Of a stretch of 64,000 bases of DNA, positions 10,909 to 63,702 are shown one piece after another. The notes beneath the pieces were generated by a model. That model was given only the letters and a program-made list of their open reading frames with translations. It was not told the DNA's origin and searched no databases. The first letter of the stretch is position 1, and the number at the start of each line of letters is the position of its first letter. The translations under genes and the position numbers were made by a program. Source of the DNA: Fistulifera solaris. Lineage: Eukaryota. The stretch lies in assembly GCA_030295235.1 (NCBI GenBank), contig AP026162.1:248001-312000 (forward strand), read 5' to 3'.

Positions 10909-11324
10909 AATGAGGGATGCTAGAATTAGAAGCGCCGCTTTCACCGGCGTATCCTAAAGCTTAATTTTTAGTGTTTCGAGGTTTGATAAAAGGAAGGAAA
11001 TGCAGCTCCTTGCACATCACAACAAAATGATCGTTGTTTGCAGCCACAATAAAAACTTTCTTACCAGTTATTTGACGGCGGACGGCAAAACGGACACTAA
11101 CGTAGAAAGTACCCCACCTTGACCAAGATTGAGTTTTAGTTTTATCAATAATGAATCGACGTCTGGTCGCTTTCGTCGGCATCAATAATAACAGCAATAT
11201 AATAATGATGCTCCAAAATTGTTGACAGGTCCATTTGCATTGCGCTTATCGATCTTTTACGTTGCGAAACCTCATAAATTTGACATTTGTGGCGCACTAT
11301 GTCAAGAACGATTTTCTTTTGTAA

Positions 11325-11379
11325 TTTACTATAGCCCAAAGTGTATGCGACCTTTTCCATGACTGGATTTCAGTCATGA
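11325..11379 (+). promoter_or_regulatory. Solo copy of ~55-bp tripartite intergenic element (function unknown)
   Basis: TTTACTATAGCCCAAAGTG...CATGACTG-GATTT-CAGTCATGA, with 37 nt between ACTATA and CAGTCA. Confidence 0.6.
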
Positions 11380-11707
11380 GGTTCGATAATTTATCGTACC
11401 GGGAAAAAACATCTATGTGTAAATTAACACATGCCGAGTGCTATTCGCAAACACACTCGCAAACTGTTTCGCAACACTCGCAACGCTTCAAAAAAGGACA
11501 AAGACAAAATGAGGTGATTGCGGCGCATCACCTCTTCTATTCATTTTACCATACTTTATCAACACTGGTTGAAGGTCTAGTTAGCAACACACGTATTTGT
11601 CACTTACTGTAGTTGAGATTGGAAGAAGTTAAACGTCAACTACTCGGACAATAATATTAAGTATAACACAGGCACATTTTCGAGAGACTTTCGACGCACA
11701 ATTCATT

Positions 11708-27086: not shown

Positions 27087-27611
27087 TTCTTTTTTGCTAA
27101 GCGGGGGCAGATGCGCTTCAATCGCAGTAACCAGATTCTGGTAAAATTCAAGACTAAATTTCCTAAAGTCTTTACGATTGCAAAGCCCACGCTAGGCTAC
27201 AGATCGAAAGCTTTGCTTCGGAAAAAAATCTGGCATCGCGATAGGAGGCTAGAGTGTCGCGATATTTTCGACCTCATCGGCTTCCACCATCCCAAGCGTT
27301 CTGCTCGAAAGTAAGCTATTTATGTCAATATTAGTGTGCGCCTCATTACATCGAAAAACTAAAAATTTTGTTATTGTTATTACTGTGGACCAATGCAATG
27401 AGTTATGGACCATGATGTGTAGTTGTAGTTTCGACATTGCCACGACTGCTTTTCAGTCATGAATTATGATGTTGTTGAGGCTGCTCTTCAAAATGTGTTC
27501 GTTCTGATACCTTGCTATGCCATGATTGCAGTAACAGTCAACACCAATTTCATGAGACACGCCTCGAATAATCTTGATGTTTAGAATTCATGAGGTCGTT
27601 ATCCTCTATCT

Positions 27612-27666
27612 TTTACTATAGCCGTAACTGTAGATTACTTTTTTCACGTCTGCTTTTCAGTCACGA
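27612..27666 (+). promoter_or_regulatory. Solo copy of ~55-bp tripartite intergenic element
   Basis: TTTACTATAGCCGTAACTG...CACGTCTG-CTTTT-CAGTCACGA with 37-nt spacing. A second partial copy lies at 27441-27462. Confidence 0.6.
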
Positions 27667-27781
27667 GTATTGTACGACGACGGACGGCGCAAAATCCGAA
27701 CTTTGAGTTCGAACGCAATGACCATCACAACTGTCGGGTGAGTTCACTATAAATCGGTGATTCTATCTTGCACCCAGCAAC

Positions 27782-35445: not shown

Positions 35446-35640
35446 ATGAACGCCCCAATTTGCTTCAGCACATCCATTAGCTTCAGTACAAGGGGACGGA
35501 ACATTTCTGCAATCATTCTTGTGAACTAAAAGCTATTGTTCGCCAAAAAGAAAAACAGCAACACCATTACACCATATTTAGATTGATTCATGTAAATACC
35601 GCGGCGACAGTTGCAAAAATAATATTTGCAACAGTATAAC

Positions 35641-35697
35641 TCATGACTGAAAATTTCACTCTTGGCAAAAACGGACAACACTTTGATCCATAGTAAA
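35641..35697 (-). promoter_or_regulatory. Solo copy of ~55-bp tripartite intergenic element
   Basis: Reverse complement reads TTTACTATGGATCAAAGTG...CAAGAGTG-AAATTTT-CAGTCATGA with 39-nt spacing. Confidence 0.55.
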
Positions 35698-35878
35698 GTC
35701 TGAAGTTGCTGTTTCGAAGATAGTTTCGAAGATAATAAGCTTTCATTACTTTCTGAACGAGAGTAAAATACGAAACAAAACATCTCGTCCGCAAAAACAT
35801 CGTCCACACCCAAAGCACAAATAAAAGGCAAAGAAAAAACTCATTGAAAACCTTGAATCGCAAATCATTCGATTGAAA

Positions 35879-41542: not shown

Positions 41543-41790
41543 CGTTGCGATTTGACAAGGTATGTACCAAAAGACGTTTTATAATGCCATAAGCTACAAA
41601 ACGAATGAATGGGTTGAGTTCTCTGTTTGTGTCGTCCTTGTCCTTTCCAAGAAAACGAGGCCGGCGTTGGGAAGGAGACGCGGACGCGCACCTCTCTCGT
41701 ATACTTTGTACTCAAGGCCACGACATTTGAATTTTGGGCGCGATGGCGGGAGACAAAGCGCGCCGTCAACATTTCAACCTGACCAACAAT

Positions 41791-41843
41791 TCATGATTGA
41801 AACGCAGTCGTGGTTACAGTAAACAACACTTTGGATGATAGCT
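41791..41843 (-). promoter_or_regulatory. Solo copy of ~55-bp tripartite intergenic element
   Basis: Reverse complement reads AGCTATCATCCAAAGTG...CACGACTG-CGTTT-CAATCATGA with 37-nt spacing. Confidence 0.5.
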
Positions 41844-42188
41844 CGGAATGACGGCGTTCCGCCAAGGTTTAGACAAGAAATAAAGACGTGCATTAAAATA
41901 CTGTTGCAATACAATTCATTGTAATAGCGAATGAGACTCATGAACGGAGGTTATGCAGCAGTTCCAATCATCAGCAAAATCATTTTCGTGACGGAATGTA
42001 GTCGTGTGTCATGTACTTCATAGAGAATAGAGACGTCATTTTCGAAGTGGTACCTCGCTGTGGTACTCGACAAAAAGATAGGGGAAAGTGGAACGATTTA
42101 TTTTCTGTTTGTTCGCCTTCGAACTTCGAACCTTGTTACCTTTCATTTTATTCATCTGACAATTCTTCTATGTTACACTATAAATAGG

Positions 42189-44690: not shown

Positions 44691-45038
44691 GGTGGGAGTG
44701 GAGCTAACTCAGCTGCAACTTTTGATCGTTCAGAGAGGCAGTTATTGATGCTAGGATGGCACCGTTCAAAGCAAGTATCCTTTTCAGTACAGATCTCTTT
44801 TTGTGCATCGTGCATCGGCCGAAGGTTGATACCCATCCGTCGAGCCTCGTCGAGCCTCGTCGAGACCCGCACACAATAGGCAAAAACGACGTGAGGCGAG
44901 GAAGAATCACGTGCTTGAAAGATATCCTTGATCCTTGCGTCTTAATTCTCAATGCTTTGAGAAGGAATAAAACAAGACTTGTCTTATTGCAGGCAAAATA
45001 CGTTCGTCATCTTCATTATTTGTACGCTTTACCTGGTA

Positions 45039-45636
45039 CGCAACTACTATTTGCGTCGAAAAGCATCCGTATCGTCGACTGCAATTTTTACTATAATGGT
45101 AAAGTCTTGGTTCTACGCGATCGCGACTTAATTTCAGTCACTTGAAACTTGAAACGCCACCTAAGCAATGAGAGCAGCTAAAATGTCCACAAACAAAAGC
45201 GCGAAGTGTATAATCAAATGCCATGGAAAATTCTTCAATCGAAACGCAACTATTTGCAACGAAAAGCATCCGTATCGTCGACTGCCATTTTCACTATAAT
45301 GGTAAAGTGTTGGTTCTACGCGATCGCGACTTAATTTCAGTCACGATCAACATAATGAAACAATATTGAAACGCCACCAAAGTGGTCCTGGAAACGAAAG
45401 CGCGAAGTGTACAATCAAATGCCATGGAATACCCAATATATAATCTAGCTATCATCTTCAATCGAAACGCAACTATTTGCGTCGAAAAGCATCCGTATCA
45501 TCGACTGCAATTTTCACTATAATGGCAAAGTGTTGGTTCTACGCGATCGCGACTAAATTCAGTCACTTGAAGCTTGAAACGCCACCTATTAAGCAATGAG
45601 AGCACCTTAGTTGTCCACAAACAAAAGCGCAAAGTG
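45039..45636. repeat. Tandem array of three ~200-225-bp units, each containing the tripartite element
   Basis: Marker AAGCATCCGTATC at 45061, 45264 and 45487. Each unit has ACTATAATGG(T/C)AAAGT, the palindrome CGCGATCGCG and TTCAGTCAC. Confidence 0.9.
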
Positions 45637-45924
45637 GAGTTTGTGGAGTTCGAAAAGATCATTTATCGGGACTCATTTATGGTCGACTATTCATCCTTTT
45701 TAAGGCACATATCAATCGTTGCAAAAAGTAATATGCGCTTTCGATGAACTTCAAAGGAGGAGAAAGAGGAACAATTCGACTCGTAGAAATTCCCAAGAAC
45801 TTTACTTAGCCCCGCATAGCGTTTCCGGCGCCTCACGAATTGCAATCAAACATGATTATCTTTACTATCCTATTCTTCTAATTGATGTCCCAACACGACT
45901 TTGATTTTGATTGCTACCCAGTCA

Positions 45925-46225
45925 TGTCCAACATCGACCCATTTCAAAGTCTTTGTCAGCACTTGCAATAAGGAATATTGTAATCCCATACAAATCTGTA
46001 TGTTCACCAGCACCATACAGTCCTTCATGCACTTGACGTCGGCATAACAAAGTAGAGCTAGCAAAGTGAGCGGGTCTTCGAAATAATTATCAAAATCAGA
46101 GCGGTGGCCCACCTGACAAGAGGACCGCGACGAGATAAGAAAGACAAACATCACTGTTCCAGTTTGCATCGATCGCTGTACTCCCTGTTGTACGAGTCGA
46201 AAGCTCAATGCACATTTCTGGGTGG
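45925..46225 (-). pseudogene. Degraded paralog of the neighbouring 2OG-Fe(II) oxygenase
   Basis: Fragments in mixed frames: CALSFRLVQ, FDNYFEDPLTLLALLCYADVK, EGLYGAGEHTD and LQVLTKTLKWVDV. These match CELCFRLVQ, FDKTFEDPMTALSLLHYGDVK, EGLFGADEHTD and LQVLLKTGQWIDV of 43635-44690. Confidence 0.8.
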
Positions 46226-46345
46226 TACGTGGGGTACTGGGCGATTCTACCTTCCCATAGGGTAGACGCTGACCAGATAATCTAGAGTCCACGGACCACC
46301 CGCCACAAAATTCTCTTGTTGAACAATCCGCTTTCACAAACTGTT

Positions 46346-47942
46346 TCAATTAAATCGAGGACTCGCCGCCAATCCCCGTGCCCCGGTTCCGTGCATCATG
46401 TTCATATACTGCCAGCGTTGACGCCGTTCTTCGCCTTCAGGATCATTCCCCACACGACGATAAAACTTTTCTTGGTCTAAATCCCTGCTAGAAAATTGGG
46501 ATCGGCTACTCGTCCAGCTGCTGTCCAGACTTGGTCTTCGGACTGATTCTGTGACAAAGAACTTGCTCATTTCAAGTTTTTCGGCTGAAGTAACATCTAT
46601 GCAGGGGGGTGAACGTCCAGACTTCAATGTTTCTGACTTGAAATGTTTCGGTGTGATCACCAGCACCGCACAAACCCGGACTACCGAAACTTTCACTCGG
46701 GCTCGTTGTGCCCGTAATCAAATCATCGCTTAGTGCAAGAGCGAAGCCCATTTTCTCCGTCATTTTAGCAAGTTCGTGTAGATTGTCGAATTCATCAAGA
46801 GATGGTGCATGATCATCTCCTCCAACAGCTAAAATATCGTGCCTGCAGATTTGCATCATCCCATCAGCAGGACCGCTATAATGATAGACATCAATTTTTG
46901 ATTCGAGAGCAGCTTGATCAAAGAGTGAGTAGCACTTGGTGAGTCTTGACTTTTTCATCCTCCATACAAACGAAGGCTTCGAACCAAAGAATCCAAAATG
47001 GTTCCCCCAAGCTTCCGAGGTAAAGCTTCCAAAGACGTCTCCTTTGTTCGTTTCAATTGCCAGTATAGTGTTGGGGGACGCGCGACAATACATCTTTAAC
47101 GTCTCGAGCGACGCTCCGTCGCGAATTAACGAAAACTTCAACCAATAATTTTGGTTCATCAACGGAGATGGTATATGGCTCATGAGAGCGTCCATCAGCG
47201 GGGGCGACAACACATGGGGCTGTGCACTCGTATCGTCCGCTGATGTTCCGATAATCTTAAAGGCGTTGTGGTCCGATGTATTTCCGTTCAAGATATCAGC
47301 AATCGTTTCGGTACGATTATAGTCAAGCCCAAAGTCTTTGGCGTATTCGTCTTTCAGAATCTCCCACGCGGAAAAGTCACTCCGAATCGTATCTTCATCC
47401 CAAGACGAATCACTGGAACAAGAATCCTTATCGTCTTTTCGTACTTCTTCGTCGGACGGAATATCGTCGCCGTCTTCTTCCAACGACAGTTGCTGTCTCC
47501 AGGGTTGAGCCGTCTGTGTATCCTCGACGCCGTGAAGGGAGCTCCTTATAACTAATGCTTTGGGATTGACTCCATCTTCGTGCGCTTTCCATAAATTCCA
47601 TAACATATATTTTCTTCTGTTTGGCTTTAGATCGCGTTTGTTGTTGAGCAGATCGTCAGGAATGGAAAACAGAACATCATCATCGAGCTTTCTCGCGGCC
47701 TGCTGAAGAAGTCGAGTTTTCTCACTGGCCTCTCGGGCATATGTATCGGGCGAGTTGGACGGATCTACATCATCCACCAGAAGTGCATGCAGAAACACTT
47801 TTTCGGCGGACGATAGGGACGGAATACGACGGAGCACTTTGGTTTGTAGTAGTTGCCGAGCTTCTTGCACTTGTTCGGATAGTTTGTCGCTCGACGAAAG
47901 ACTGGAAGAAAGATGTTGTAAAGTAGCTGCTTCTCCGCTCAT
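46346..47942 (-). CDS. TLDc-domain (OXR1-like) protein
   Basis: W.LKFSL.RDGASL.T, ILAIET..GDVFGSF, FFG....FVW, FALAL.DDL..G, F.V.NIEVWTFTP. Extra base in G-run 46604-46609. Confidence 0.88.
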
Positions 47943-48487
47943 GGTGTATTGTTGCTGTGCTTTGTGTATTGGTTTAAAGTTTGTTTAGTGTAGTTTGGTT
48001 TGTTATCTTGTTGGAATGAATGTAAGGAACTTTACTGCTTCGCAAATGTCGTTCCACGCAAGAAAGAACGGTGCTGTCAAACGACGAAAGAACAACGTCG
48101 AAAACGACGAGGGTGCGAGAACGCGTTCGCATCCGAAGCTGTTGCACTGTAACGCAGTGTGTATCCATGCGTTCGCGTTCTGTTACTTATCAGTGTCTAT
48201 TCATTGTCTCTCCGCTACTCACATAGTTACGTTTGTCGCACGAAAAAGACGTTAATCAGCGTTATAACTAACATTTAATATTACAGTAAAAATAAATGAA
48301 CGTTATATTTAACACTTTATCATACAGTAGAGGGCCGCCGGCGCGAAACGTGACAAACGGCCAAAAGAAGCAACAACGACAACAACAACAAAAACTTTTC
48401 CGAAACCATCATCGTGCGGATAGAAAGACGAATAAACCAGCAATAAGAAACAGCAATCGCCATTCCATTCAATAAACACAGAGAGCG

Positions 48488-50800
48488 ATGAAGCTTCGTA
48501 CAGGTGTCGCAGCATACGGTCTTTTATTACTGATTCTTTCCCCGCCAGCCGTCGCTGACGATGGACTTGACAAACCTTTCACTTCATCGTTTGCCCGATT
48601 AGAACATGCTCCTTGCACCTCACTCTTTTACCGAAATGGAAGACTTGGATGTGGAACGGAAGACACGTCGCTGCAAGTAGGACAACTGAAATATTTCGAC
48701 GGTAGTCTCCCGGATATAAAGAGCCCGTACGTGGCTGTCATGGAAGAAGAAATGCTAACCGTCGATTCGATTAATACATTGCTTTCGGCGCGCGGCGGAT
48801 ATTTGCAAGGTATTCTTGTACTCAACTCGACTTCGGAAGAAGATGGAGGACAAAATAATCAATATTATTCTCCCGATTCTTTGTATCCTCGAGGCTACGG
48901 TACTCCCTCCGCGAATCTTAATTACGGAACAAATGCTTATGCTTGGAATCCGAAAGGTCAAGGACTGTTTGATATTGACATGCATGGTATACCGATGGCT
49001 TATGTCATTGATGCAGATGTTTCAAAATCCCTCCGGAAGGAAGCGCAGTCGGTGAGTGACGCTCCAGGGGATACGATTGTGGCAGAATTCAACTATTACA
49101 TGGGTCCGGACAAAATGACCAGTGCCAAGTGTCTCGCATGGAAGGATGTTGCCACCAACCAATGGAACCCAAAATGCTTACCCATCGGAGGAACTAGCGT
49201 ATGGGCTACACCTGGTTCTCCGCCATCCTATGGAGATTCCGAGAATGACAACAATGCTAACAATCGACCGGTCGTTGTACTGGCGGCCGGAATGGATTCG
49301 ACTAGTATGTTTCACGACATTAGTCCTGGTGCGAACACAGCGGCCTCCAACATCCTCACTGTTTTGATGGCAGCGCGCTTGATTGGAAAATACGTCAATG
49401 ATAACACATTGGACTCCTTGCCGAATCGAATTGTGTTCGCTTTGTTTGAGGCAGAGCAGTACGGCTTTGTTGGGTCGCGCTCCTTCCTTCGCGACGTCGC
49501 TTATCCTGGTTTTGAATGCAAGAGCAGTCTCGTTCGTGCGGTTTCAAGACTTGGTGAAAAGTCGGATCTGGCTTGTATTAATCCGGTACGTCCCAGCATG
49601 AAATTTACTGGACTGGGACAAATCAAAGGAATGTTGTCCGTCGATCAGCTTGGTTACCTCCTAGGGGATGGTGTTCTCTATGTTCACGCGGATAACAACA
49701 ACGACATGTACGGCACTTTCTTGGCTAATGTTCTCAAAAGTTCGGGAACGAACAGCTTTAGCGTTGCGTCAGCTAGCGTGAATAGTAACAACAACGCTTA
49801 CCCCTATCCTCCGACGCCGTTAACATCCCTTCTGCATCTTTCCGAGGGTGCCGTGGGTGGAGCCGTCTTGACCGGTTACGACTACGCTTTCACCAACAAA
49901 GTCCCCTACCATTCCCACCGTGACTCTGCAGATTACTTTTCCGTCAATTTGAAATCCATTGCCGCAGCAGCAACAATCGCGGCGCGGTCCATTTTGGCGG
50001 CGGCGTACGACAATGGCAGCTACGACTATGCAACATCCGCTAATTACGCGAAGAATCTAATTGGCGAATTGAATTATGATGACAAAGACTTGGTGGCCTT
50101 ATCCAACTGTCTTCTGCACAACGGTCAGTGTGAGATGATCCAGAAATACAGTTCGGTCGATGCGGCGAACGAGAGAATCCGCTTCGGTCGAAACATGGGT
50201 TCGCCGAACCCCATGCCAAAAGCAGCGAACTTTTATGCGGGTGTGTACCATCGATACTATGGTCAGCCGGTGGTCGCGGTCGGTGATCAGCTCTATGGCG
50301 CCTACAACGGAAATGACTACGGAAACAAGGCGTCGGATGCTATTCACATTCTACCCGAAGCACTCGAAAGTGCGATTCATGGTTTGTTCAATGATTACCT
50401 CGGTCGCGGCTCCAATTCGAATGGAAAATTTACGTCGTGCAAAACAGTATCGGATTGTGGCAATGTAGACTACTGCAGTGCCGAAGGCGACAGAGCCACT
50501 TGTACGGGTGGCGGTGTCTGTGTTTGTGAGCGGGCTTCCTACCATGTCGCTTTGGATGAAGCATTACTTCCTGCAGAAAACAAACCGGCGGGATACTTTG
50601 TAGTCAATGAGAACGACGAAGGCATTAGTGCCATGTATACCGAGCCGAATTGGTCGAACGATGTCGGTGTACGAGTCTACCGCGATGCCGGTTGGCTTCC
50701 CGGCTTCCTTTCGCTCGCGGCTGGGTTAGCCGTGGGATCCGCGTCCATTTTCGGAGCCTTTGTTCTACGAATCGGTCTGAAGAAAGAAAAGCTGTATTAA
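48488..50800 (+). CDS. NCSTN: Nicastrin (gamma-secretase subunit)
   Basis: Signal peptide, CLPIGG.SVW, MDSTSMFHD..PGA, F.AE.YG.VGSR.F, PPTPL, YTEPNW and a C-terminal TM helix. Confidence 0.9.
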   Translation: MKLRTGVAAYGLLLLILSPPAVADDGLDKPFTSSFARLEHAPCTSLFYRNGRLGCGTEDTSLQVGQLKYFDGSLPDIKSPYVAVMEEEMLTVDSINTLLSARGGYLQGILVLNSTSEEDGGQNNQYYSPDSLYPRGYGTPSANLNYGTNAYAWNPKGQGLFDIDMHGIPMAYVIDADVSKSLRKEAQSVSDAPGDTIVAEFNYYMGPDKMTSAKCLAWKDVATNQWNPKCLPIGGTSVWATPGSPPSYGDSENDNNANNRPVVVLAAGMDSTSMFHDISPGANTAASNILTVLMAARLIGKYVNDNTLDSLPNRIVFALFEAEQYGFVGSRSFLRDVAYPGFECKSSLVRAVSRLGEKSDLACINPVRPSMKFTGLGQIKGMLSVDQLGYLLGDGVLYVHADNNNDMYGTFLANVLKSSGTNSFSVASASVNSNNNAYPYPPTPLTSLLHLSEGAVGGAVLTGYDYAFTNKVPYHSHRDSADYFSVNLKSIAAAATIAARSILAAAYDNGSYDYATSANYAKNLIGELNYDDKDLVALSNCLLHNGQCEMIQKYSSVDAANERIRFGRNMGSPNPMPKAANFYAGVYHRYYGQPVVAVGDQLYGAYNGNDYGNKASDAIHILPEALESAIHGLFNDYLGRGSNSNGKFTSCKTVSDCGNVDYCSAEGDRATCTGGGVCVCERASYHVALDEALLPAENKPAGYFVVNENDEGISAMYTEPNWSNDVGVRVYRDAGWLPGFLSLAAGLAVGSASIFGAFVLRIGLKKEKLY

Positions 50801-51241
50801 TTGAGTATTCTTGTAAAGTCCGAGTGTTTTCTTAGGGAATGGAATCGTGTTTCGTAGGAATAGTTTCCTCCAAGCAGAGTTGTGATGTCACAATGCACGC
50901 TATGAGCGTCTGTGTTTGTCTAGCATCTACCATTTATCCCTCCAATCGCCGCAGTTCATTGTAGATTTATCGCGGGTAAGGCGAAAAGGAAAAGTATAGA
51001 GATGCCTAGGTCTAGGTCTACACTTACTTTAGTCAACTTGGGATACGGTAACTGCTCACGACGGGGATGGAAGCGACGACTGTGGCCAACATTTCACCCA
51101 GAACAATCGACGCATTCATCATACATGAGACTAAATAAATCTGTTTGCTTCCTGAAGCGGTTTTAGTTAGCAATGGTAGAAGAACAAGCGGTAGTTTGAG
51201 AGGAGTCGTGTGAACACAATCCCGTTTCAGAAACTATTAAT

Positions 51242-51295
51242 TCATGACTGAAGTGCAGTCGTGGTTAAGTTACTTTACATTTGGAGCTATAGTAA
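51242..51295 (-). promoter_or_regulatory. Solo copy of ~55-bp tripartite intergenic element
   Basis: Reverse complement reads TTACTATAGCTCCAAATG...CACGACTG-CACTT-CAGTCATGA with 37-nt spacing. Confidence 0.6.
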
Positions 51296-51531
51296 CCAAG
51301 GTGCCGCATACGATCGTAGCGTTACTGAAAAGCTATGGCCTGGGACACTCCCTGTTACACTACCAGGTATGCCATACAGTATAGCAACCACGTCCACGTG
51401 AATGGAAAGCAAACTTCTTCCTTTTCGCAAAACGATGCAAAATCGCCATTCATTCGCAACGAATGAATGAACAGTCTGCGCCTTCTTGTTCCTCTAACTC
51501 ATTCGTTCTCCAACATTGACACAAATCAACA

Positions 51532-52713
51532 ATGACATCGCCGGAAGAGAGTGCGGATAGATTGACTACGCCGGGTCCGACGATAACTTCTCAAATGCTG
51601 ACGCTCGGACTAGATGCGAGTGACGGTCGATCGCCAAAACGTTCGGTGGAAATGGTCGACAGCACTAACGAATCAGAACGAAATACCTGGTGGAATAGAG
51701 CTTTTCATTCCACGGATGGAGGTTTGGATAGTCGCATAGCAGCAGCGGTGCCAAGCGAGTCAGATAGACCGCGTATAGTAGTGGATGAAGTCGACACAAA
51801 TTATTCTTACGAGCAGATGGGAGAGCGTTTGACGGTTAATACACACACACATGAAAATGTCAATGATTCTAGGAAAGGCCGAGCAATGATGCAGCAGGGA
51901 ATACGAAAAGTTGGAGGTACTTTTAAGAAACTGCAAAAAACGTGGATTCTTAATTCGCACACCAGACGCTCCTTGTCGGACCGAAGCCATATGATTTTAC
52001 GAGATGGGCATTTTTACTATAGGGACATGGAAAGTGCGGTTCCCTCTCGCCATGATGTTGAATCTCAATGCAATTATTTTCAAGCTCCTTCGAGTGCCGC
52101 AGACACCGAACTGAAACGATATCGGGAAAGATTTGAGGATCTTAATAAAGATGCCAAGTGCTTGGAGCTCGATCGATTACTCGACAACGACTTGCAACTG
52201 GATCACACGGAAGACGTGGAGACGAACGAAGTGCAACGAGATGCGCGTAGTAGTATCATTCACACTGCTCAAACATCGTCTCTCTATTATGAGGTTGAGG
52301 GAGGTGGGATGACGCTTCTTTGTTTACCACGAGATCACGTAAGACTCATTATGGATCCAGAGCTACAAACTGGCACATTGGCTGTTGAGCAATGGAGACG
52401 TGAGGATGAGACCAGATACGAAGTTTCTTTGTCTCAAAGGCCGTCTTGCTCGTTTTGCCCAAACTGCAAAAAAGAATTTACGTTCGGTAGAGATTTCTCG
52501 ATTCACCCTGATTTACGGTACACCCTGGTGGTCAACGACGATTTGTACCGAAACCTCATGTCAGAGTTGAGCAGCCATCTTACCGAACCGTACTGTGGCA
52601 TCAACCGATGGTGTCTGGACGACGAAAAAGTGGATATTCGGGTGGCAATTGGTTTTCTAATCATTGTCTTTTCACTTATGTTTGCTACAACTATTGTGTG
52701 GCCAACTCAGTGA
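51532..52713 (+). CDS. Hypothetical tail-anchored protein
   Basis: Intact 393-aa ORF with a single C-terminal hydrophobic helix (VAIGFLIIVFSLMFATTIVW). Confidence 0.75.
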   Translation: MTSPEESADRLTTPGPTITSQMLTLGLDASDGRSPKRSVEMVDSTNESERNTWWNRAFHSTDGGLDSRIAAAVPSESDRPRIVVDEVDTNYSYEQMGERLTVNTHTHENVNDSRKGRAMMQQGIRKVGGTFKKLQKTWILNSHTRRSLSDRSHMILRDGHFYYRDMESAVPSRHDVESQCNYFQAPSSAADTELKRYRERFEDLNKDAKCLELDRLLDNDLQLDHTEDVETNEVQRDARSSIIHTAQTSSLYYEVEGGGMTLLCLPRDHVRLIMDPELQTGTLAVEQWRREDETRYEVSLSQRPSCSFCPNCKKEFTFGRDFSIHPDLRYTLVVNDDLYRNLMSELSSHLTEPYCGINRWCLDDEKVDIRVAIGFLIIVFSLMFATTIVWPTQ

Positions 52714-52739
52714 TGACCATTCGTCTAAAAACCACACTG

Positions 52740-55700
52740 CTACTTCGAGTTTGAAGAGATGTGTGAGACTTGTCTCACCTTGAATATTTCAGGCCTTTTC
52801 GAAAGCTGCGAGACCAGTTCGCGACCTGCAGCTTTGGGAAATGCAGATTGAATCGCAAATTCCATTATCGCCGTCGGTCGATCACCCGAAGAGGAGCTTC
52901 GTAGTCCGTATTGAGCTACTTTCACCGGTGACCCGTCATCGTGAACGGGTATAGATTTGATGAGTTTGATTGTGTGTCCCAAAGCATCGTCGCGATACTC
53001 CGCTTCTACGCGAAGGAGTATTGTTTCGGGTCCATGCTCTTTATCCAATGATACAATAGTAAATTCCCCTAGAATTGACTGAATTGTATCTGCGACCTCG
53101 AGCGATGTGGGTCGTTCGCTCGGAACCTTGTTGAGCATACTGGTTATCAGGGGATTGTAAGGTTGGAAACGATGTACCAACTTTTTTGTTCCAATCGGAT
53201 GGAAACTTGTGCGCACGAAGGTTGGTCAAGCACACGCTTCTTTCCATGCCAGTGTACATAGGATAGCACAATTCAAATAGGATAATTCCGAGAGAGTATA
53301 TATCTGTAGATGAATCATAGTCAGAAGCGTTTGTTTGCTCAGGCGATGCGTAAGACCGTGTCCCCAAATTTGTAGTTAGTATCGCCCTGCTAGAATTGTT
53401 TGGACTCACTGCATCTGAAATGTCATCTTCAGTGGATGCCTCGCGGCTTAGCCCAAAATCTCCCACCTTGATAATGCCTTTCGTATCCATGAAGCAGTTG
53501 CTTGCTATAAGGAGAGGAAGTGGAGGACAGTAGACCCACAGTGGCATGAAAGAGCAAGCAAAATCAGTAAAGAATTACGAGGGGATGCAAGTACATCAAA
53601 GTATATAAAGGTAATAAGACTTACGCTTGAGATCCCGATGGATGAGGCCTTGATCGTGGACGTAATGAACAGCCTGAGCAATCTGGACAAACAATTGGAG
53701 CGCCCTTGGAATATCGATCCCAGACTCGAGTGAGCCGCGTCTTGCTTCTTCATCCAAGAGAAATTCTGCCACAGTGCTCTGACTACAGAGTTGCATTTGA
53801 ATGTACAGCGTGTGTTTGGTTGCATTGTTTGTGTCAGATTGCGTGGGTTTCATGCTTGTATTCCTACTCATTGTCACATTTCGCTGGTGGGAAAGCTTTG
53901 CATTTTCGAAAAGTCCCGTTTCAAGAATTGTACTATCATCGTTCCTGCTCTCCGACATAAACTCAAAATCGTTGTGAAAGTTTTTCGAAAGTCGGTCTCT
54001 CCGTAAACTTGAAAAACTAAAATTGGATGTCATGTTCCATCCTAAAGGGTTACCTGCATTCAAGTGCGTCCGTTGCAAGGTGGGCGCTGAGCAGTGGTCA
54101 TCTTCCCATTTGCTCACAGAGTCCGTGGTAAAAAGGGAATTGTCTGTTGCATCATCAAATGTTTTCTGCTCTTCGGGTCCGTTACTACTTGATGCTGTGA
54201 CCGGCTTATCGTCGTCATCGATCTCTAGCCAAGCAGTGTAATATCGAACAATGTTAGGATGATCGAGTACAGCGAGTATCTTAACTTCGCGAAGCACACG
54301 CTGCAGGCGCCTCTGAAATCCAGGATCACTGGAATCTGCGCCCTTGACCGATATTTTCTTGATAGCGTATTCACGACCATCCAGGACATTTTTACATCGA
54401 AATATCCTGCCGAATCCACCAGCACCCAAAGCCTCGAATTCCTCAAACTCCGACGCATATCGAGAGTATCGAACCAAAGGTATGCCTCCCAATTGAACAG
54501 GTTGCTTAGAATCTTCAATGGGGCGCTGGTTTTGTTCATTACCGGGAGTAGAAAGGATCATATCATTGTCTTCGTTTTTAGATATAGCCGCGCTTCTCGA
54601 CAAATCCCCGAAGTCATTCTTGCTCGTGAAATTTGTGCTTTCTACAAAAGCTCCAGGTAAGCTTTGGCTCCTTTTCAGATTCCCGGATCGAGGCGGGAGC
54701 TTTGAAGTAGAGGTTTCTAGGTCAAGCGAATATGCGACATGAGGCCGTGTCTTCCTCGCGTCAGTCGTTGCTTCCGACAACCATTTTCTCTTTTTTGAAT
54801 TGTACAACCGGTGGAGTCCGACCGACAAAACCACCACACAAATCGCTAGAAACTCGACTAATCGCCAACTTAAGAGAAGCCCGCCGGGATGGATAGAAGT
54901 TCGCTGAGGAAGGGGAGTACCACGTTCTCTTTCAGGTTGGTTAAAAACAAACCCAAGTTTTGATTCAAAGGAATCGTGTTCAACAGTACAAGTCTCCCCA
55001 ATCGAAAGCCTTGATTGTCTAGGTTCGCCCGAGGGAAGCAATTTTGGGGCTCTTTTCGTCTCAAATCCCATTCTGCCTCTTGGGGGCGATAATACGCACG
55101 AGCTGCCTCCCATGCCGCTTTTGACCAAGTCTCATCATGTTCTACAGTTTCGCGGGGCGGGTATGTGAGCTCTAGCTGTTTGCTTTCCGTCGCTTCAGTC
55201 ATTTCATCAAAGTCGAGGTCACTTTCCACAACTGTAACCGTAGTCCAATGCCCGTTGCTTATTCCGAAAACCGAGGAAAGAACGCTGGGAGTGGTCTGTT
55301 GCCACAAAATGCTGCCGTTTTCCGGATCCACCGCAGATAGTGTGCGACCAGCATTTGAAAACAAGATAGAGGGCATTTTCGCTTTTATGAATTTGCTCTC
55401 AGCGAGGCCCACGATATCATCTTCATCTGCGTCGAGGGCAGTCTCGTCATCTAGCAAAACATCTCGAAAATCCAATGCCTGATAGTTCCCCAGCGAAACA
55501 TTCCAAGCTTGTTTCCCTGTTGACTCGGAAACATGTCGAATCCAGTACTCTTTTCTTTGCAAAGTAACGCAGCTTCCGTCGGTCGCTTTTCTCTCAAAAT
55601 GGAATCCCCATTTTCGGTTTTCCACAAAAGATGCCCTTTTTCATCCAATGCGATAAGACTGGTTTCTGCCGATGCCGTTAAAATGCCGCATTCCTGTGTG

Positions 55701-56143
55701 TCGGGAGTGCAGCTTCGAATAGGATGCTCCAAGATAGAATGAATCGAAAAAGGTAGCACTTCGAGAGATGGGTCACCGCTTTCAGAGAGTTCTGAATAGG
55801 AATACAAGCGACCGTCCAAGCCCGGTACAATCGACACCGATGAGTCCTTCAGCTCGTCAGAAAGTTCGGTATTATCCGTTCTATGTTTTTGTAACAGCGG
55901 ATCGGTGGAAACACTCGCCTCTAATTTTCCAGTCCACGCATTCATTGTGACCAACGTCCCGTCCGTCAAGGATAGAAGCAGATAGGACGACGAACGGTCA
56001 TCGCTTTTGCCGTGAAACGAGGGAATGGAATGCGTCTCTTCATTGTTCAATGACGCCATGGAGAGCACCATCAGGTAGGAAATAAAAAGAGCGAGGAGAG
56101 CGCATTTGAGAGACCGTCGTTTTCGCGACCGAATTCGGTACAT
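52740..56143 (-). CDS. PERK-like transmembrane eIF2-alpha kinase with a putative C-terminal ACT-like domain
   Basis: Signal peptide, luminal IRE1/PERK-like region (LSLTDG.L, VPGLDGRLY, WNVSLG) and TM helix. Kinase motifs SRY.SEFEE..LGAGGFG, LDGREYAIKK, HPNIVRYYTAW, a long insert, LYIQMQLC, HRDLKPSN and KVGDFGL. Intron 53505-53624. Three apparent frameshifts (~55587, ~54900-55130, ~53150). Confidence 0.88.
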
Positions 56144-56716
56144 TCTGGAACATGTAGTTGGAGCTCTGCGCCGCAAATAAGCTTCTCCTCTTAGTGTCGA
56201 TCTCACAAGGGGTTTGACTTTGTTGCTCTTAAAACGACAAAAGGACTTTTCTCGCCCGCAACGAACGCTGCTTGAAAATGCTCGTTCCTCATGGTGTCGT
56301 GGGTCTTCCGAAAAATCGCTAGCTGGAACTTTGTTCGTCGTATCGGTATCCAATATGTACAGCTCGTGACTTCTGACATCACTGACACCTGACTTCGTTT
56401 TGGTATCCACAACCATAGTAGAATAACTCTTGAAGGTACTTTTGTATGCGAGATATTGTATGCCCAAGTTCGGGTTTGCATGTCGCATCGTCATTACAAA
56501 ATACATCCACAGTGAACGAATGAATGTGCGCGATCATAAGCGCGACGAATGCTATGAGCGCGATGATGATGTGTCTCTCGATCGTATCTTGACCTGAATC
56601 ATCAGCTTCACAAAATAATACGGAGTAAACAATTCGAGGAAGACGTTTCCCCAGCTAAATATCATAGCTCGTCGTACCCAGCTGTATTTTCAGTTATATC
56701 ACTGCCTTTCTTGACG

Positions 56717-58223
56717 ATGAAGATCTCGTTCGCAGCAATTTCGTGCCTGGCTCTGTCGGCCACTTCGGCGGCTGCCTTCGCGCCCAGCTCTCCGCATCGG
56801 ATCTCCACAGAACTAAATGCGTCGCCGGAATGGCTGCAAAAGGCACAGCAGACATTAGTCACGGCGGGTGTTGCTGCAAGTCTGTGGTCGGCGCCCGCGT
56901 TTCTGGACTCCACAGGTGTCTTTCCGACAACAACTTCGACCGTCACCGCCAAGGAAATGGCCAGTGGAAGTGGCTCGCGAGTGAACAAAGACGCCGAGTC
57001 TCTTCTACGTTACGGCCTTCCCATAAATAACAAGGAGGTGTGTATTGTCATTGATGAGCAGCGCCTCGTCGGTTCACCTGCGAGCTCGCCTGATTTTCCT
57101 GATTATTTGTTGTGATCTCATACTTTCCCTTTACTGAATAGGTTCGAAAGCTACAGGTTGTTCTAGAGGATGTCAAGTACGATATTCAATCGAAGCGAAA
57201 GGGAGCCGCATTGTCGGGTAGCCAGAAAGCCAAGGCCATTTTAAACAGCAAAGATACGGAGAAGATGAAAGCCGCGTGTCGTGAGCCAGATGTCTGTCAA
57301 AAGTATCTCACGGCCATGATACAAGAAATGGACCCTCTTTCGGCCGCATTGAAAGAATCGCAGGATACATTCCAGGGCAGTGATCAAGAGCGAGCTGCCT
57401 TGGATAAAGCTTATGAGGCACAAAACGAAGCTGTAGCCAGTCTTTCTCTTTTGGAAGAGCAGATGGTGCCAAAAGGATACAAAGTCCCCGTTCCGGAAGA
57501 ATACAACGACTTGCCACAATTACAGGGACGCGCTACGGTCTCAATGACTTTGGTGAAACCCAACAAAGCACCTTTCCAGGTGGACGCCGTGTCCTATCCC
57601 GAAGCGAAAATGAAAATGGTGATTGATGGTTACAATGCTCCTGTTACAGGTGGAAACTTTTTGGAGTTGGTTCAGAAAGGCTTTTATGACAAAATGCCGA
57701 TTCAGCGTTCGGATGGATTTGTAGTGCAAACGGGAAGACCCGAAGGCAATGCCGAGGGATATGTTGCTCCCGGAAGCAAGAGCGTAGGGAATGGAAAGAA
57801 TGGCGAACGTCTTATTCCTCTCGAAATCTTTGTGAAAGGGGATAAGGCTCCCATTTATGAAGTTACTATTGAGGACGAAGGGCGAGGCGGAGAAGCGACA
57901 GTCATTCCTTTCAGTAGTTATGGTGCCATGGGATGGGCGCGAGAAGAGTACGACCCCAATTCCGGAAGTTCTCAATTCTTTTGGCTTCTCTTCGACTCAG
58001 ACTTGACACCGGCGGGGAAGAACGTTTTGGATGGCAGATACCCATGGTACGTATCGACGTAGCTCTCGTGTAACTTGATGCTTGCTTTTAAAGCTCACCG
58101 CTCTGCTTTAGTTTTGGGTACGTGGTGGAAGGCGCTGACTTTTTGAAGGCAGTGGAAGAAGGCGATATCATCGTCTCAGCTAAGGTGACAGAAGGTGCCG
58201 AGAACTTGATCTTGCCGAAGTAG
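56717..58223 (+). CDS. CYP38: Thylakoid-lumen cyclophilin (CYP38/TLP40-like)
   Basis: AAAFAP plastid leader plus a lumen signal, SLLRYGLPI, LPQLQGRATV, IDGYNAPVTGGNF, FVVQTG, SQFFW, LDGRY.CFGYV. Introns 57038-57141 and 58047-58111. Confidence 0.88.
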
Positions 58224-58900
58224 TCAAGAACGCGCTACAGCTCGACTGAGACACAAAGTTGCACAGTCGACAAGTATTTCAAGTTCATTGTGATGGTTGC
58301 CGCATTGTAACGAGCGGCGCTACTCGACCGCTGAATCACTTACTAGGGGCTATTTTAAAATTTAATGTATCAGCTTAGCTACAGACTGACCGCTAGACTA
58401 GTACCTATCAAAAGAATCTTGATGCAGTAGTCTTAGGGCTCTGCCACAAAGAAAACTCATCTGGCTCTGAACGCCAACACAACATTGCCTGCTCTGTAGA
58501 ACGTAACTGCCCGTAGGAGATGATGATTGTCTAAATAATATATCAAAATGAAATGCGTAAAGTGTGGGATGATTTTTTCGTGCGACTGGTCGATTTTCCA
58601 GGTTCTTTTAAACTTCTCGAATAACGAACGCCCTTCAATAAACAGAAAGACAATCAGAAAAAGTGAGAACGACTGAACAGCAAAGAGAGGTAAATCTCGT
58701 CAGGAGCAAAGGTACAGGTCATACTCTTCCTATCAAAACTCAATCTCATCATTCATCGGCACGATATAATGAGTGTCTATCTGACATTTTGCCAAATCAA
58801 CTCGGTTTATTCGGTTTCCGATTTGTGTAACGTAAGCGAGTCTCTTTTCATAATCATTCTGTTTCGATCGCCAACTCTTTAAAGACGATGAACGTACATT

Positions 58901-59592
58901 TTAATCCACCAACATTTGCTTGGCAATCTCATCTCGTTTTTCCTTTCCAAACAGTTGTTCTCCCAGTGTGAGTGCAAATTGAATCGATGTACCGGGACCT
59001 TGCGACGTGATCATATTCCCGGTCACCACGACACGTTCTTTGGAGTAATTGGGAATCGTTTCTTGAAAATGAGGTGCGGGATAACATGTCGCGGCGGCTC
59101 CCTCTTCGATCAACCCGTGCGTCGCCAAGGCGATCGCCGGTGCCGCACAAATCGCACCGAACAGTTTATTGGAACTTTTTGTTTCCGCAGCAATTCAATG
59201 AGTGGCGCACAATCCCGTAAGGCTTCCGCCCCAGCCACACCACCGGGCAACACAATCAAGTCCCAGTCGCGGGTCGCCGCGTCTTCGATGACTTGATCGG
59301 CTTGCACTTGAATGCCTCGACTCATCGTACACAGCAATTCTCCGTTCGGATTTACGGAGGCTGTAGTAACTTTGGCACCGAATCGGGTTAATGTATCAGT
59401 AATGCAAGTTGTTTCGATTTCTTCACTCCCATGGGCGATGGGAACCAAGACCTGTTTAGTCGTCATGCTTCGAGCGGTGGAAGAATAAAATGTGGATGAT
59501 AACTGCGATGACTGGAAAGCGGAACTGAAGCTTAGAAAAGCGAGAAGAGGAGTGTTTCGAAAAAGCAAGAGTCTCTTTGCGAGGAATGACAT
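58901..59592 (-). CDS. PARK7: DJ-1/PfpI (YajL-like) protein with organellar leader
   Basis: VPIAHGSEEIE, DLIVLPGG..GA, AICAAPA (restored by adding one base to run 59176-59180), ATCYP and ITSQGPGT. Confidence 0.9.
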
Positions 59593-59898
59593 ACTAGTAA
59601 AGTAAAAAATGAGAAGCATACAATTACCGGGTAAATAATGAGGTGCGCCGGCGGTGCAGCGTGATAAGCGGTGTATGCGTGTATGCAGTGTTTTTGTGGT
59701 TGCGAGGAGTGATGTGGAGGAGTTTTAACTCATGACTGACAAATCATGACTGAAAGCGCATTATAAGTCGGTCCGCCAGTCAGTCGCCTCGATCTACTGC
59801 TTTTTCACCCCACAAAACAAAATATTAGCTGAAGATTACTTACCGTGACGAAACATTACCATACCTCCTCGTCTTAACAATACTTTCCTGCTTATTGC

Positions 59899-61097
59899 AT
59901 GCGACGCATTTTGTTGGCGGGACTTCCTTCTTTGTGCTTGGCCTTTCGACCTATTTCTTTGCCCCGATCGCGGAATCATCATCATCGTTTATCACGCTTC
60001 ACCATGACAACAAACATGTTCAAACGCGCCAAATTATCACTTGACGAAGATCCCGAATCCAGTCACAGTAAGACTGTTGCCGTACATTCCGGAACCTTTC
60101 AAGCCGACGAAGCTATGGGTGTTTGGATGTTGCGACAACTCCCTTCCTACCGCCACGCCAAGCTCATTCGCAGTCGGGAGTTGCAAGTCTTGGAGTCAAC
60201 CGATATTGTTTTGGATGTGGGTGGAGTGTACGATCACTCCAAATTACGCTACGATCATCATCAAAGAGGTTACGAAGAGTATTTTTATCCCAAGAAGATA
60301 TTGCAGCCGGGAGGAAGTTCGAAAGAAGAACCGCGTTGCACGAAATTAAGTGCGTCGGGTCTCATTTACAAGCACTACGGAAAGCAAGTCATCCAAACTT
60401 ACTATCCTGAATTGACAGAAGAGTATCTAGAGTTGGCTTTTCATCGAATTTACGACACGCTTCTCGAAGCACTCGACGCGATTGATACCGGAGTGGAAAT
60501 GGCACCCGAAGGTGTCCAATTGGTGTATTCCGATGCTACCGGACTCGCGCGTCGTGTCAGCCGTCTCAATCCCCGGTGGAACGAAGTCACTGAAACCGGC
60601 GAAAGTCCCGATATGGATGAACGCTTTTTGCAAGCGGTAGAGATGTGCGGTCAGGACTTTTTGTCGGTCATGACGGCTATTGTCGAAAGTGACCTGCCCG
60701 CCCGAACGCACGTGGTACAAGCTCTTTGAAGCGCCATGAAATTGACGAGTCGGGTGAAGTTATTAAATTAGAAAGTGGAGGATTGCCTTGGAAACATCAC
60801 TTGTATGATTTGGAAAAAGAAACAAACATTCCCAAATTGATCAAGTTTGTGCTTTACACAGATACGTCCGGTATGTGGAGAGTTCAAGCGGTGACAGTGG
60901 AAGGCAAAAACTTTGAGAACCGATGTAGTTTACTGGAAGCCTGGCGAGGAGTACGTGATGATGAGCTTGTATCTATCTCAAATATTCCAGGGGCGCGCTT
61001 TGTCCACGCCGCCGGCTTTATCGGTGGCGCAGACACCTACGAGGGAGCTTTGGAGATGGCGAGGGAGACGCTGAAACAACAACCGAGTGAATCATGA
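59899..61097 (+). CDS. MYG1: MYG1 family exonuclease (UPF0160)
   Basis: HSGTFQADE, DVGGVYD, RYDHHQR, TKLSASGLIYKHYG, DAIDTG, WRVQAV, WRGVRD, FVHAAGFIGG. Frameshift in T-run 60725-60727. Confidence 0.93.
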
Positions 61098-61398
61098 ACT
61101 ATAAAAGGTTAAAGGCGCTACATCAAAGAACTATCTTGATACTCATGGTCTAATAATGTGTCCATGTTCATCTTCTATTGTTCACTTCCAAGTTTCGTAT
61201 AGATCTTAATGTACATGAGGCACGACTACATTCAGTCATGAGTTCATTTTATTACGACGAGACAGCCTATCATTAATAATCAAAATAAACTCGAAGCTCG
61301 ATGAGCTACATAACTGTATAGGCACCTTCAATAGCATTGCAAGGCACGGCGCCTTGGTTATCAGCGTCGTAAATCACGTTGCATAGTTTGTGTCCGTA

Positions 61399-61455
61399 TT
61401 TACTATAGACCTAAAGTGAAGATTACTTTTTGCCATGACTGCATTGCAGTCACGA
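61399..61455 (+). promoter_or_regulatory. Solo copy of ~55-bp tripartite intergenic element
   Basis: TTTACTATAGACCTAAAGTG...CATGACTG-CATTG-CAGTCACGA with 39-nt spacing. Confidence 0.6.
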
Positions 61456-61650
61456 ACCCTGCAAGCGCAATTTTATACTCCGTATTACTCCGTACCAGGT
61501 ATTTTTATAAAGAAAAGACCCCGTCCGGCGAAATTGGGCAAATACAAGTACGTTCTTGAAATTGGACCCCTTTTGGGGGGTTTAAAAGTGCTAGACACCG
61601 TGATAGTGAAACGGTTTCTACTCCTAGCGCAAAGGGGAAATCACATCCTA

Positions 61651-63702
61651 ATAAAAAATGAAACACTTAACAAGTTGTTCAGAATCATCATTGTTGCAAC
61701 ATTGTTTACCCGTATTTATCATATAAACGCAGTTAAATGACAATGGACGGATGCGAGAGACGTAAACGGAACCCTTTGTTGTTCGGTTCATGACTACTGT
61801 ACAATCCAGTCTTGGCTGGCGTAAACCAACACTTCGTTTCATAGTGAAAATTCATATGGTGTCGATCCTCGGATTTTCGACGTGAAAATAAAAGAAACTC
61901 TCAACAAATAGTTCAGAATCATCATTGTTGCGACATTACTTACCCGTAATTATAATTATATTTACGGTTGAATGACAATGGACGGCTGCGAGACGCAAAA
62001 CGGAACCCTTTGTTGTTCAGTTCATGACTACTGTAAACCAACACTCCGTTTGATAGTGAAAATTCATTTGGTGTCGATCCTCAGATTTTCGACGTGAAAA
62101 TAAAAAAAACTCTTAACACGTACCTTGTAAATCGTAAATCAGAATCATCATTGTTGCGACCTTAATTACCCGTAATCATAATTATATTCACAGTTGAATG
62201 ACAATGGATCAATGGACGGGTGCGAGACGCAAAACGGAACCCTTTGTTGTTCAGTTCATGACTACTGTAAACCAACACTCCGTTTTATAGTGATAATTCA
62301 AGGCTTCGATCCTCTGATTTTCGACGTGAAAATAAAAGAAACTCTCAACAAGTTGTTCAGAATCATCATTGTTGCAACATTGTTTACCCGTATTTATCAT
62401 ATAAACGCAGTTAAATGACAATGGACGGATGCGAGAGACGTAAACGGAACCCTTTGTTGTTCGGTTCATGACTACTGTACAATCCAGTCTTGGCTGGCGT
62501 AAACCAACACTTCGTTTCATAGTGAAAATTCATATGGTGTCGATCCTCGGATTTTCGACGTGAAAATAAAAGAAACTCTCAACAAATAGTTCAGAATCAT
62601 CATTGTTGCGACATTACTTACCCGTAATTATAATTATATTTACGGTTGAATGACAATGGACGGCTGCGAGACGCAAAACGGAACCCTTTGTTGTTCAGTT
62701 CATGACTACTGTAAACCAACACTCCGTTTGATAGTGAAAATTCATTTGGTGTCGATCCTCAGATTTTCGACGTGAAAATAAAAAAACTCTTAACACGTAC
62801 CTTGTAAATCGTAAATCAGAATCATCATTGTTGCGACCTTAATTACCCGTAATCATAATTATATTCACAGTTGAATGACAATGGATCAATGGACGGGTGC
62901 GAGACGCAAAACGGAACCCTTTGTTGTTCAGTTCATGACTACTGTAAACCAACACTCCGTTTTATAGTGATAATTCAAGGCTTCGATCCTCTGATTTTCG
63001 ACGTGAAAATAAAAGAAACTCTCAACAAGTTGTTCAGAATCATCATTGTTGCAACTTTGTTTACCCGTATTTATCATATAAACGCAGTTAAATGACAATG
63101 GACGGATGCGAGAGACGCAAAACGGAACCCTTTGTTGTTCGGTTCATGACCACTGTACAATCCAGTCTTGGCTGGCGTAAACCAACACTTCGTTTCATAG
63201 TGAAAATTCATATGGTGTCGATCCTCGGATTTTCGACGTGAAAATAAAAAAAACTTTTGAGTTCAGAATCATGCTAACTTAATTAGCCTTAATTAAAATA
63301 ATATTCGCAATTGAAAGTCAATGGATGGATGCGAGAGACGCAAAACGGAACCCTTTGTTGTTCGGTTCATGACTACTGTACTATCGAGTCTTGGCTGGCG
63401 TAAACCAACACTTTGTTTCATAGTGAAAATTCATTTGGTGTCGATCCTCGGATTTTCGACGTGAAAATAAAAGAAACTCTTAACAAGTAGGTCTAGTTCA
63501 GAATCATCATTGTTCCGACATTACTTACCCGTAATTATAATTATATTCGCGGTTGAATGACAATGGACGGATTGGGCAAGAGGTATTGTCCACCTCTTGG
63601 ATTGGGGAAGGCAAAACGGAACCCTTTGTTGTTCGGTTCATGACTACTGTACTATCGAGTCTTGACTGGCGTAAACCAACATCTTGCGTCATAGTGGAAA
63701 AA
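61651..63702. repeat. AT-rich satellite: nine monomers, mostly 210-235 bp, with a trimeric ~678-bp higher-order repeat
   Basis: Marker CGGAACCCTTTGTTGTTC at 61767, 62001, 62235, 62445, 62679, 62912, 63123, 63346 and 63617. Near-identical sequence recurs at offsets of 677-678 bp. Confidence 0.95.

What the first reader, a model, noticed from the sequence alone, without database searches (positions are those of the whole stretch)
45039..63702. The solo element, the 45-kb triplet array and the 62-kb satellite are one family at three levels of amplification
Seen: the reverse complement of the 45-kb unit (consensus) reads GTGACTGAAATTAAGTCGCGATCGCGTAGAACCAACACTTTACCATTATAGTGAAAATTGCAGTCGACGATACGGATGCTTTTCGACGCAAATA. 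The satellite monomer reads TCATGACTACTGTACAATCCAGTCTTGGCTGGCGTAAACCAACACTTCGTTTCATAGTGAAAATTCATATGGTGTCGATCCTCGGATTTTCGACGTGAAAATA. Shared collinear blocks are TGACT, GCGTA(G)AACCAACACTT, ATAGTGAAAATT, GTCGA, CGGAT and TTTTCGACG. The solo at 35641 (TCATGACTG..CTTGGC..CAACACTT..CATAGTAAA) aligns too. Both arrays have a ~200-235-bp period, about one nucleosome plus linker. Inference: one binding module is used singly in promoters and multimerised into arrays, possibly as a chromatin-organising or centromeric system, or as a satellite born from a mobile element.
Basis: partly seen in the sequence, partly recalled or inferred. Interest (0 to 1): 0.75.

Follow-up and report, generated by a model that had tools for sequence, protein, structure and literature searches.

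The report
Core-sharing dispersed satellite family in diatom
The two repeat arrays and the single copies do share one roughly 100-base core, and they belong to a large family of short repeat arrays scattered between the genes of a hybrid diatom that spreads and swells like selfish DNA; no centromere or promoter role was shown.

Summary
Observation confirmed with one correction. The 62-kb array (family A, ~234 bp), the 45-kb triplet (family B, 203-222 bp) and the solo at 35641 share a ~100-bp core (hairpin, ACACTT, ATAGT, TTTTCGAC). A profile trained only on copies outside the window finds all three (solo 35 bits, B 28-31, long A units 18-23; controls at most 6.4). The other half of each unit is unrelated between A and B, so they are sister subfamilies, not one unit at three copy numbers. 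The window is Fistulifera solaris, subgenome Fso_h. The hairpin alone has 891 exact genomic hits in both subgenomes. A and B form short arrays at dozens of sites, almost only in Fso_h; both window arrays are missing from the homoeologous chromosome. Homoeologue pairs show 1-versus-6 and 1-versus-11 copies at one locus. The 45-kb array was copied from another locus with 295 bp of flank, and many A arrays share end pieces. Best reading: a core-sharing euchromatic satellite library spread by block copying and local expansion. Centromere role unlikely; promoter role and selection untested or inconclusive. Earlier scan notes described the solo on other DNA.

The parts
61653..63700 (+). Family A array: partial spacer, 8 full units and a terminal core; includes a duplicated trimer (61787-62464 / 62465-63142) and a terminal-only variant core
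   Evidence: absent from homoeologue C2
61514..61629 (+). Left end of a separate ~830-bp TTAA-flanked MITE, lying 5' of the A array as at three other A loci
45039..45640 (-). Family B triplet (cores 45478-45566, 45260-45347, 45052-45141)
   Evidence: absent from homoeologue C2
45634..45928 (-). Unique flank copied together with the B array from G000:C1:1,265,284-1,265,590 (89%), where it is ancestral
35639..35730 (+).
11319..11380 (-). Solo core, intact hairpin (47 bits)
27404..27668 (-). Relic pair of cores 204 bp apart (27404-27465, 27595-27668), shared with C2
32270..32354 (-). Weak relic core (8.3 bits; just above the control maximum of 6.4)
41789..41869 (+). Solo core (39.5 bits); the homoeologous gap holds a different core in the opposite orientation
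51238..51301 (+). Solo core (46 bits), shared with C2
61177..61458 (-). Relic pair of cores 214 bp apart (61177-61243, 61366-61458), shared with C2, back to back with the A array

Best explanation
An old superfamily of ~200-240-bp non-coding monomers, each a shared ~100-bp core plus a subfamily-specific spacer, was present in both parents of this allopolyploid diatom. Old arrays have decayed to solos and relic pairs. In the Fso_h parent, subfamilies A and B went through a burst: arrays were copied as blocks, sometimes with neighbouring DNA or a MITE end, into intergenic gaps that often already held a repeat, without target-site duplication (templated break repair or circle re-integration; inferred), then grew locally by unequal exchange (1 to 6 units, trimer duplication; copy-number difference shown, direction inferred). 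The core most likely persists because it is the recombination or break-prone handle of this spread, not because each copy serves the neighbouring gene (inferred).
For: Shared core, unrelated spacers, at least six spacer types all 203-241 bp; independent profile finds A, B and solos; A and B each monophyletic, support 1.0. Dispersal: 208 and 187 matches, lower bounds. Subgenome bias: A word 166 hits, the first 100 listed all on odd contigs C1-C15; B word 49 of 49 on odd contigs. Local expansion: B 6 units on C15 versus 1 on C16; C-type 11 units on C2 versus 1 on C1. Block copying: 295-bp flank; 12 of 21 A arrays end in the core just after the ATAG box, 7 of 21 carry a last-unit variant seen in 0 of 98 internal units, 6 of 21 share a tail; MITE left end 5' of 4 A arrays. 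A single B unit sits inside a core of the unrelated F repeat; a mixed A-then-B array joins within the core. 13 of 18 sites have a C, B or F relic in the other subgenome's gap (hand tally; binomial P 0.001 at a background of 0.35, 0.018 at 0.45).
Against: It does not explain by itself why unrelated spacers keep one period, nor why the same boxes survive in every subfamily. No circles or repair intermediates were observed. Four of eight A units lack the hairpin yet were amplified. The precise MITE-end boundary and the preferred ATAG end look more enzyme-defined than random repair would give. The 13-of-18 tally was made by hand on sites chosen for having arrays, one hit is weak (11 bits), and the background rate is an estimate.
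Confidence: 0.58

Rival explanations
1. The core is the end of a non-autonomous rolling-circle (Helentron/HINE-like or other HUH) element, and the arrays are read-through or central repeats.
For: Read backwards the core is a short palindromic box (ACTATAGT) about 50-60 bp from a terminal hairpin, like a HINE 3' end (PMC4067079 passages). No target-site duplication at most sites. 12 of 21 A arrays end at the ATAG box; flank capture.
Against: The box and hairpin are in every monomer, not in array-flanking LF/RF segments as in oyster HINEs. No inverted partner subTIR found. No RepHel, PIF1 or Rep_1 match in G000 (two of these had controls that rang nowhere, so weak). Target DNA is often replaced by 45-480 bp.
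Confidence: 0.2
2. The core is a host cis-element (dimeric factor site, nucleosome-phasing or replication-origin module) kept by selection, and arrays are multimers of it.
For: 0 of 83 cores in conserved coding DNA; 1 of 41 convergent gaps against 16 of 63 divergent (both subgenomes pooled); many solos are at orthologous places; hairpin arms 89-95% identical between homoeologues against 74-78% for flanks and 79.5% for four-fold sites; relic neighbours keep ~190-240-bp spacing and one strand.
Against: Arm mismatch of 8-9% is close to the 10-12% expected from picking cores by their match to the consensus. Several orthologous cores have lost the hairpin or box in one subgenome. Gap-class bias is not significant after length control; no orientation rule. 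Young A and B arrays are missing from the other subgenome.
Confidence: 0.14
3. The arrays are centromeric satellites.
For: A array is 38% GC against 46% for the window; low-GC DNA recruits CENP-A in Phaeodactylum. A piece matching a published F. solaris candidate centromere motif lies next to some A/B arrays and inside the homoeologue of the 35641 solo.
Against: At least eight A sites and five B sites on C1 alone; Phaeodactylum has one 2.4-5.6-kb peak per chromosome with a 500-bp stretch under 33% GC and no repeats; lowest 500-bp GC here 36.4% and 39.4%; the motif-bearing piece does not align with A or B (best 49 of 500 shuffles).
Confidence: 0.04
4. A and B are unrelated and the likeness is chance or convergence.
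For: Spacers do not align; core identity only 58%.
Against: Collinear boxes over 100 bp, both scored by a profile trained without them, controls at most 6.4 bits; intermediates of C type link them.
Confidence: 0.02

Closest known systems
Meloidogyne satellite library with conserved boxes (PMC3694981; abstract seen)
   Same: Divergent satellite families share short motifs; simple, higher-order and mixed arrays; motifs at monomer junctions.
   Different: Here the shared part is a ~100-bp multi-box core with a hairpin, arrays hold only 2-11 units, lie between genes, and also occur as solos.
Drosophila euchromatic 1.688 / Rsp-like clusters (PMC7403614; passages) and Tribolium Cast satellites (PMC11610590; abstract)
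   Same: Short arrays in gene-rich DNA, bursts in one lineage, new repeats entering older unrelated clusters, one shared junction with a variable other end, local unequal exchange, link to transposon pieces.
   Different: Those families do not share a core across unrelated spacers; circles were shown there and not tested here.
Helentron-associated non-autonomous elements (HINE/DINE-1: PMC4067079; oyster Cg_HINE: PMC7492417; passages)
   Same: Short dispersed tandem arrays, palindromic box plus hairpin at a similar distance, no target-site duplication.
   Different: No constant flanking ends around arrays, no paired subTIRs, no autonomous partner found.
F. solaris candidate centromere/ARS motifs (10.1101/2021.11.10.468027; section 7 and passages)
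   Same: Same species, dispersed low-GC intergenic DNA, subgenome-specific variants; a motif-1 piece sits beside some A/B arrays.
   Different: The motif-bearing piece is not alignable with A or B: neighbour, not member.

Membership tests
Dispersed euchromatic satellite library with conserved boxes | Head-to-tail non-coding monomers in short arrays at many gene-rich sites | tested here: met
Dispersed euchromatic satellite library with conserved boxes | Divergent families share a conserved motif; mixed and higher-order arrays | tested here: met
Dispersed euchromatic satellite library with conserved boxes | Lineage-specific bursts from a shared library | tested here: met
   (subgenomes as lineages)
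Dispersed euchromatic satellite library with conserved boxes | Presence on extrachromosomal circles | not testable with these tools
   needs circle sequencing or 2D gels
Helentron / HINE | Paired 5' and 3' subterminal inverted repeats flanking the central repeats | tested here: not met
   no constant flank pair among the A and B arrays examined
Helentron / HINE | Palindromic box followed by a stem-loop near the 3' end | tested here: inconclusive
   anatomy fits in reverse orientation, but it is in every monomer and no fixed end follows the hairpin
Helentron / HINE | Insertion at TT without target change | tested here: inconclusive
   no duplication at most sites, but target DNA usually replaced
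Helentron / HINE | Autonomous RepHel partner in the genome | tested here: inconclusive
   0 matches for PF14214, PF05970, PF01446; controls weak
MITE carrying internal repeats | Terminal inverted repeats at both ends with a target-site duplication | tested here: not met
   left end at 4 A arrays, no right end in the 39 loci scanned
Diatom centromere | One region per chromosome with a 500-bp stretch under 33% GC | tested here: not met
Diatom centromere | CENH3 binding | not testable with these tools
   needs ChIP
Known structured RNA | Rfam match at gathering score | tested here: not met
   0 matches in the window

The most novel reading that the evidence does not exclude
The core is a sequence-specific nicking or recombination site (hairpin plus ATAG box) of an undescribed diatom system that captures unrelated ~120-bp spacers into cassettes of fixed length and spreads them as arrays, a eukaryotic counterpart of REP/BIME-type elements (comparison recalled), possibly doubling as a replication origin, which would give diatoms their first defined origin motif.
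Probability: 0.12. Interest if true: 0.8.

Novelty: new variant of a known kind. Interest (0 to 1): 0.4.

Why it matters
It gives a compact case of how a satellite library is built: one core, swappable spacers, and single-to-array transitions readable by comparing two subgenomes in one nucleus. A and B are usable Fso_h markers. It also suggests caution with low-GC motif searches for centromeres in this industrial alga, since at least one published motif sits in a dispersed repeat piece among these arrays. If the core is an origin or nicking site it would matter for diatom episome design.

Tried and rejected
Rfam: no match. Core pattern in metagenome and viral contigs: 0 and 0 (exact pattern, near-own records may be left out, so no evidence on range). 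Helitron/HUH families: none (weak controls). Homology of the published-motif piece to A or B: none of 12 comparisons significant. Promoter-side preference: not significant. Selection on the core since the subgenome split: inconclusive. Target-site duplications: none clear; a possible 4-bp one at the window A site only (read by eye). MITE right end after A arrays: not found. Unrelated 214-226-bp family F: no cross-hit with the core profile. Public runs: no RNA holder listed; laid on 44000-61640, one RNA-like run left the B array uncovered, which is no evidence; a wetland metagenome run holds near-identical contigs up to 45075 and 61640. Earlier-findings look-ups by sequence and near place gave nothing. 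The 2015 genome paper could not be opened; I recall that it reports abundant ~236-bp tandem repeats, unchecked.
Full report
Setting. The window is G000:C1:248001-312000, gene-dense, 46% GC. Its MYG1-like protein is 100% identical over 237 residues to Fistulifera solaris FisN_1Hh131 and 93% to FisN_1Lh131, so C1 is the Fso_h copy of an allopolyploid diatom chromosome and C2 its homoeologue. That odd and even contigs are homoeologue pairs elsewhere is shown for C15/C16 and inferred for the rest; the parity appears to flip from C30.

Observation. Both arrays and the solo are as described. B against A units beat 296-300 of 300 shuffles in all 6 pairs. The solo is marginal pairwise. I therefore trained a profile on 28 hairpin-bearing cores from 14 loci outside the window, none of type A or B. 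It scored the solo at 35.4 bits, the three B units at 27.6-31.4, four long A units at 17.6-23.4 and four short A units at 8.3-15.3; the last, truncated A core was not reported. The reversed window reached 4.2 bits and ten shuffles at most 6.4. The same run found seven more solos at 17 bits or more.

Anatomy. The core is about 100 bp: hairpin TCATGACTG-n5-CAGTCGTG, about 12 bases, ACACTT, CTATAGTAAA, then CGATCCGC and TTTTCGAC. Of 18 monomers compared, cores align across families while spacers fall into at least six unrelated groups; all monomers are 203-241 bp. A and B are each monophyletic in a core tree. So the finding is right about the core and wrong if read as one unit at three copy numbers. 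B keeps a hairpin; A has an altered one and half its units here lack it.

Distribution. The exact hairpin pattern has 891 hits, the reversed control 0, on both C1 and C2, singly and in 221-227-bp arrays. A and B each give about 200 matches as a lower bound in arrays of 2-11 units. Exact words for A (166 hits, first 100 listed) and B (49 of 49) fall on odd contigs only; single B units exist on C2 and C16. In 520 kb of paired sequence, 0 of 83 cores overlap conserved coding DNA, which covers about half of it. Of 44 neighbouring cores under 1 kb apart, 43 are on one strand, and most old pairs are 190-240 bp apart.

History from homoeologues. Both window arrays are absent from C2, while most solos have partners there. 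B has 6 units on C15 and 1 on C16 within orthologous flanks; a C-type unit is single on C1 and 11-fold on C2. The window's B array plus 295 bp of flank matches C1:1,264-1,265.6 kb at 80-89%; the flank continues into C2 there, so that locus is the source side. Of 21 A arrays, 12 end in the core just after the ATAG box, 7 have a last-unit variant absent from 98 internal units and 6 share a tail. Four begin behind the left end of an 830-bp TTAA-flanked MITE, and several share a 130-bp leader. Empty sites mostly show replaced DNA, not duplicated targets. One B unit lies inside a core of the unrelated F repeat. By hand tally 13 of 18 sites have a relic repeat in the other subgenome's gap; the five without are the window B site, C1:905k, 928k, 1354k and C2:505k.

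Mechanism. Shown: shared core, subgenome-specific burst, copy-number differences at single loci, block copying with flanks, shared array ends. Inferred: templated repair or circle re-integration for spread, unequal exchange for growth, and the core as the handle. This matches what is described for Drosophila Rsp-like/1.688 (PMC7403614, passages), Tribolium (PMC11610590, abstract) and Meloidogyne (PMC3694981, abstract). A Helentron-type origin stays open because the reversed core resembles a HINE 3' end (PMC4067079, passages), but flanking ends as in oyster HINEs (PMC7492417, passages) were not found and no partner protein was detected (weak controls).

Function. Not shown. Arms are 89-95% identical between homoeologues (11 and 13 of 18 pairs passed the 20-bit filter) against about 75% for flanks, but selecting cores by consensus match predicts about half the background divergence, so the test is inconclusive; several cores have decayed in one subgenome. 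Cores avoid convergent gaps (1 of 24 and 0 of 22) but not significantly once gap length is controlled. Against a centromere role: many sites per chromosome, one subgenome, GC not below 36%, against one peak per chromosome and under 33% in Phaeodactylum (10.1101/096016, abstract and passages). The candidate centromere motifs of F. solaris (10.1101/2021.11.10.468027, section 7 and passages) occur in a piece next to some arrays and inside the C2 partner of the 35641 solo, but that piece does not align with A or B. The only related nucleosome repeat length found is 178 bp in Nannochloropsis (PMC12744764, passage).

Novelty. Four searches found no description of this family in the held library; the 2015 genome paper was not available, and I recall without check that it mentions ~236-bp tandem repeats. 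Earlier notes of this scan describe the solo and its 190-240-bp rows on other DNA of this genome. What this window adds is the link to A and B, the swappable spacer, and the subgenome history. Verdict: real, a new variant of a known kind, interest 0.4.

Noticed in passing
window 61514-61629; full copies L120, L121, L122: An ~830-bp MITE with ~25-bp terminal inverted repeats flanked by TTAA, near-identical at three loci; its left half precedes several A arrays.
   Followed up: partly
G000:C1:862.3-864.7k, 988.4-991.3k; L029: A second, unrelated 213-226-bp repeat family (F) with its own conserved core, often interleaved with A and B arrays; also much richer in Fso_h (33 against 3 hits in 180 kb each).
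   Followed up: partly
G000:C2:266110; L023, L029, C1:861.7k: A dispersed piece carrying published candidate centromere motifs 1 and 3; one exact word has 9 hits, all on the contigs inferred to be Fso_l.
   Followed up: partly
window 60693-60726: The MYG1-like gene is split between two frames here though the public protein is whole; probably an assembly error.
   Followed up: no
window 45930-46349: Remnant similar to the 2OG-Fe(II) oxygenase region at 43.4-44.0 kb, beside the right junction of the B insertion.
   Followed up: no
window 23325-23605: 33-34-bp minisatellite related to a 23-copy array at C2:302.5-303.3k.
   Followed up: no
paired segments L080-L115 and window: Short words TACCAGGTA/TACCTGGTA (17 and 23 against 1.7 expected) and GTACCGGTAC (16 against 0.3) are over-represented and often lie near repeat junctions.
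   Followed up: no
G000:C1:946.7k / C2:895.3k: Two cores joined tail to tail at the ATAGTAAA box in both subgenomes.
   Followed up: no
window 41986-42016: Hairpin-like relic about 200 bp after the 41789 core, found by BLAST but not by the profile.
   Followed up: no
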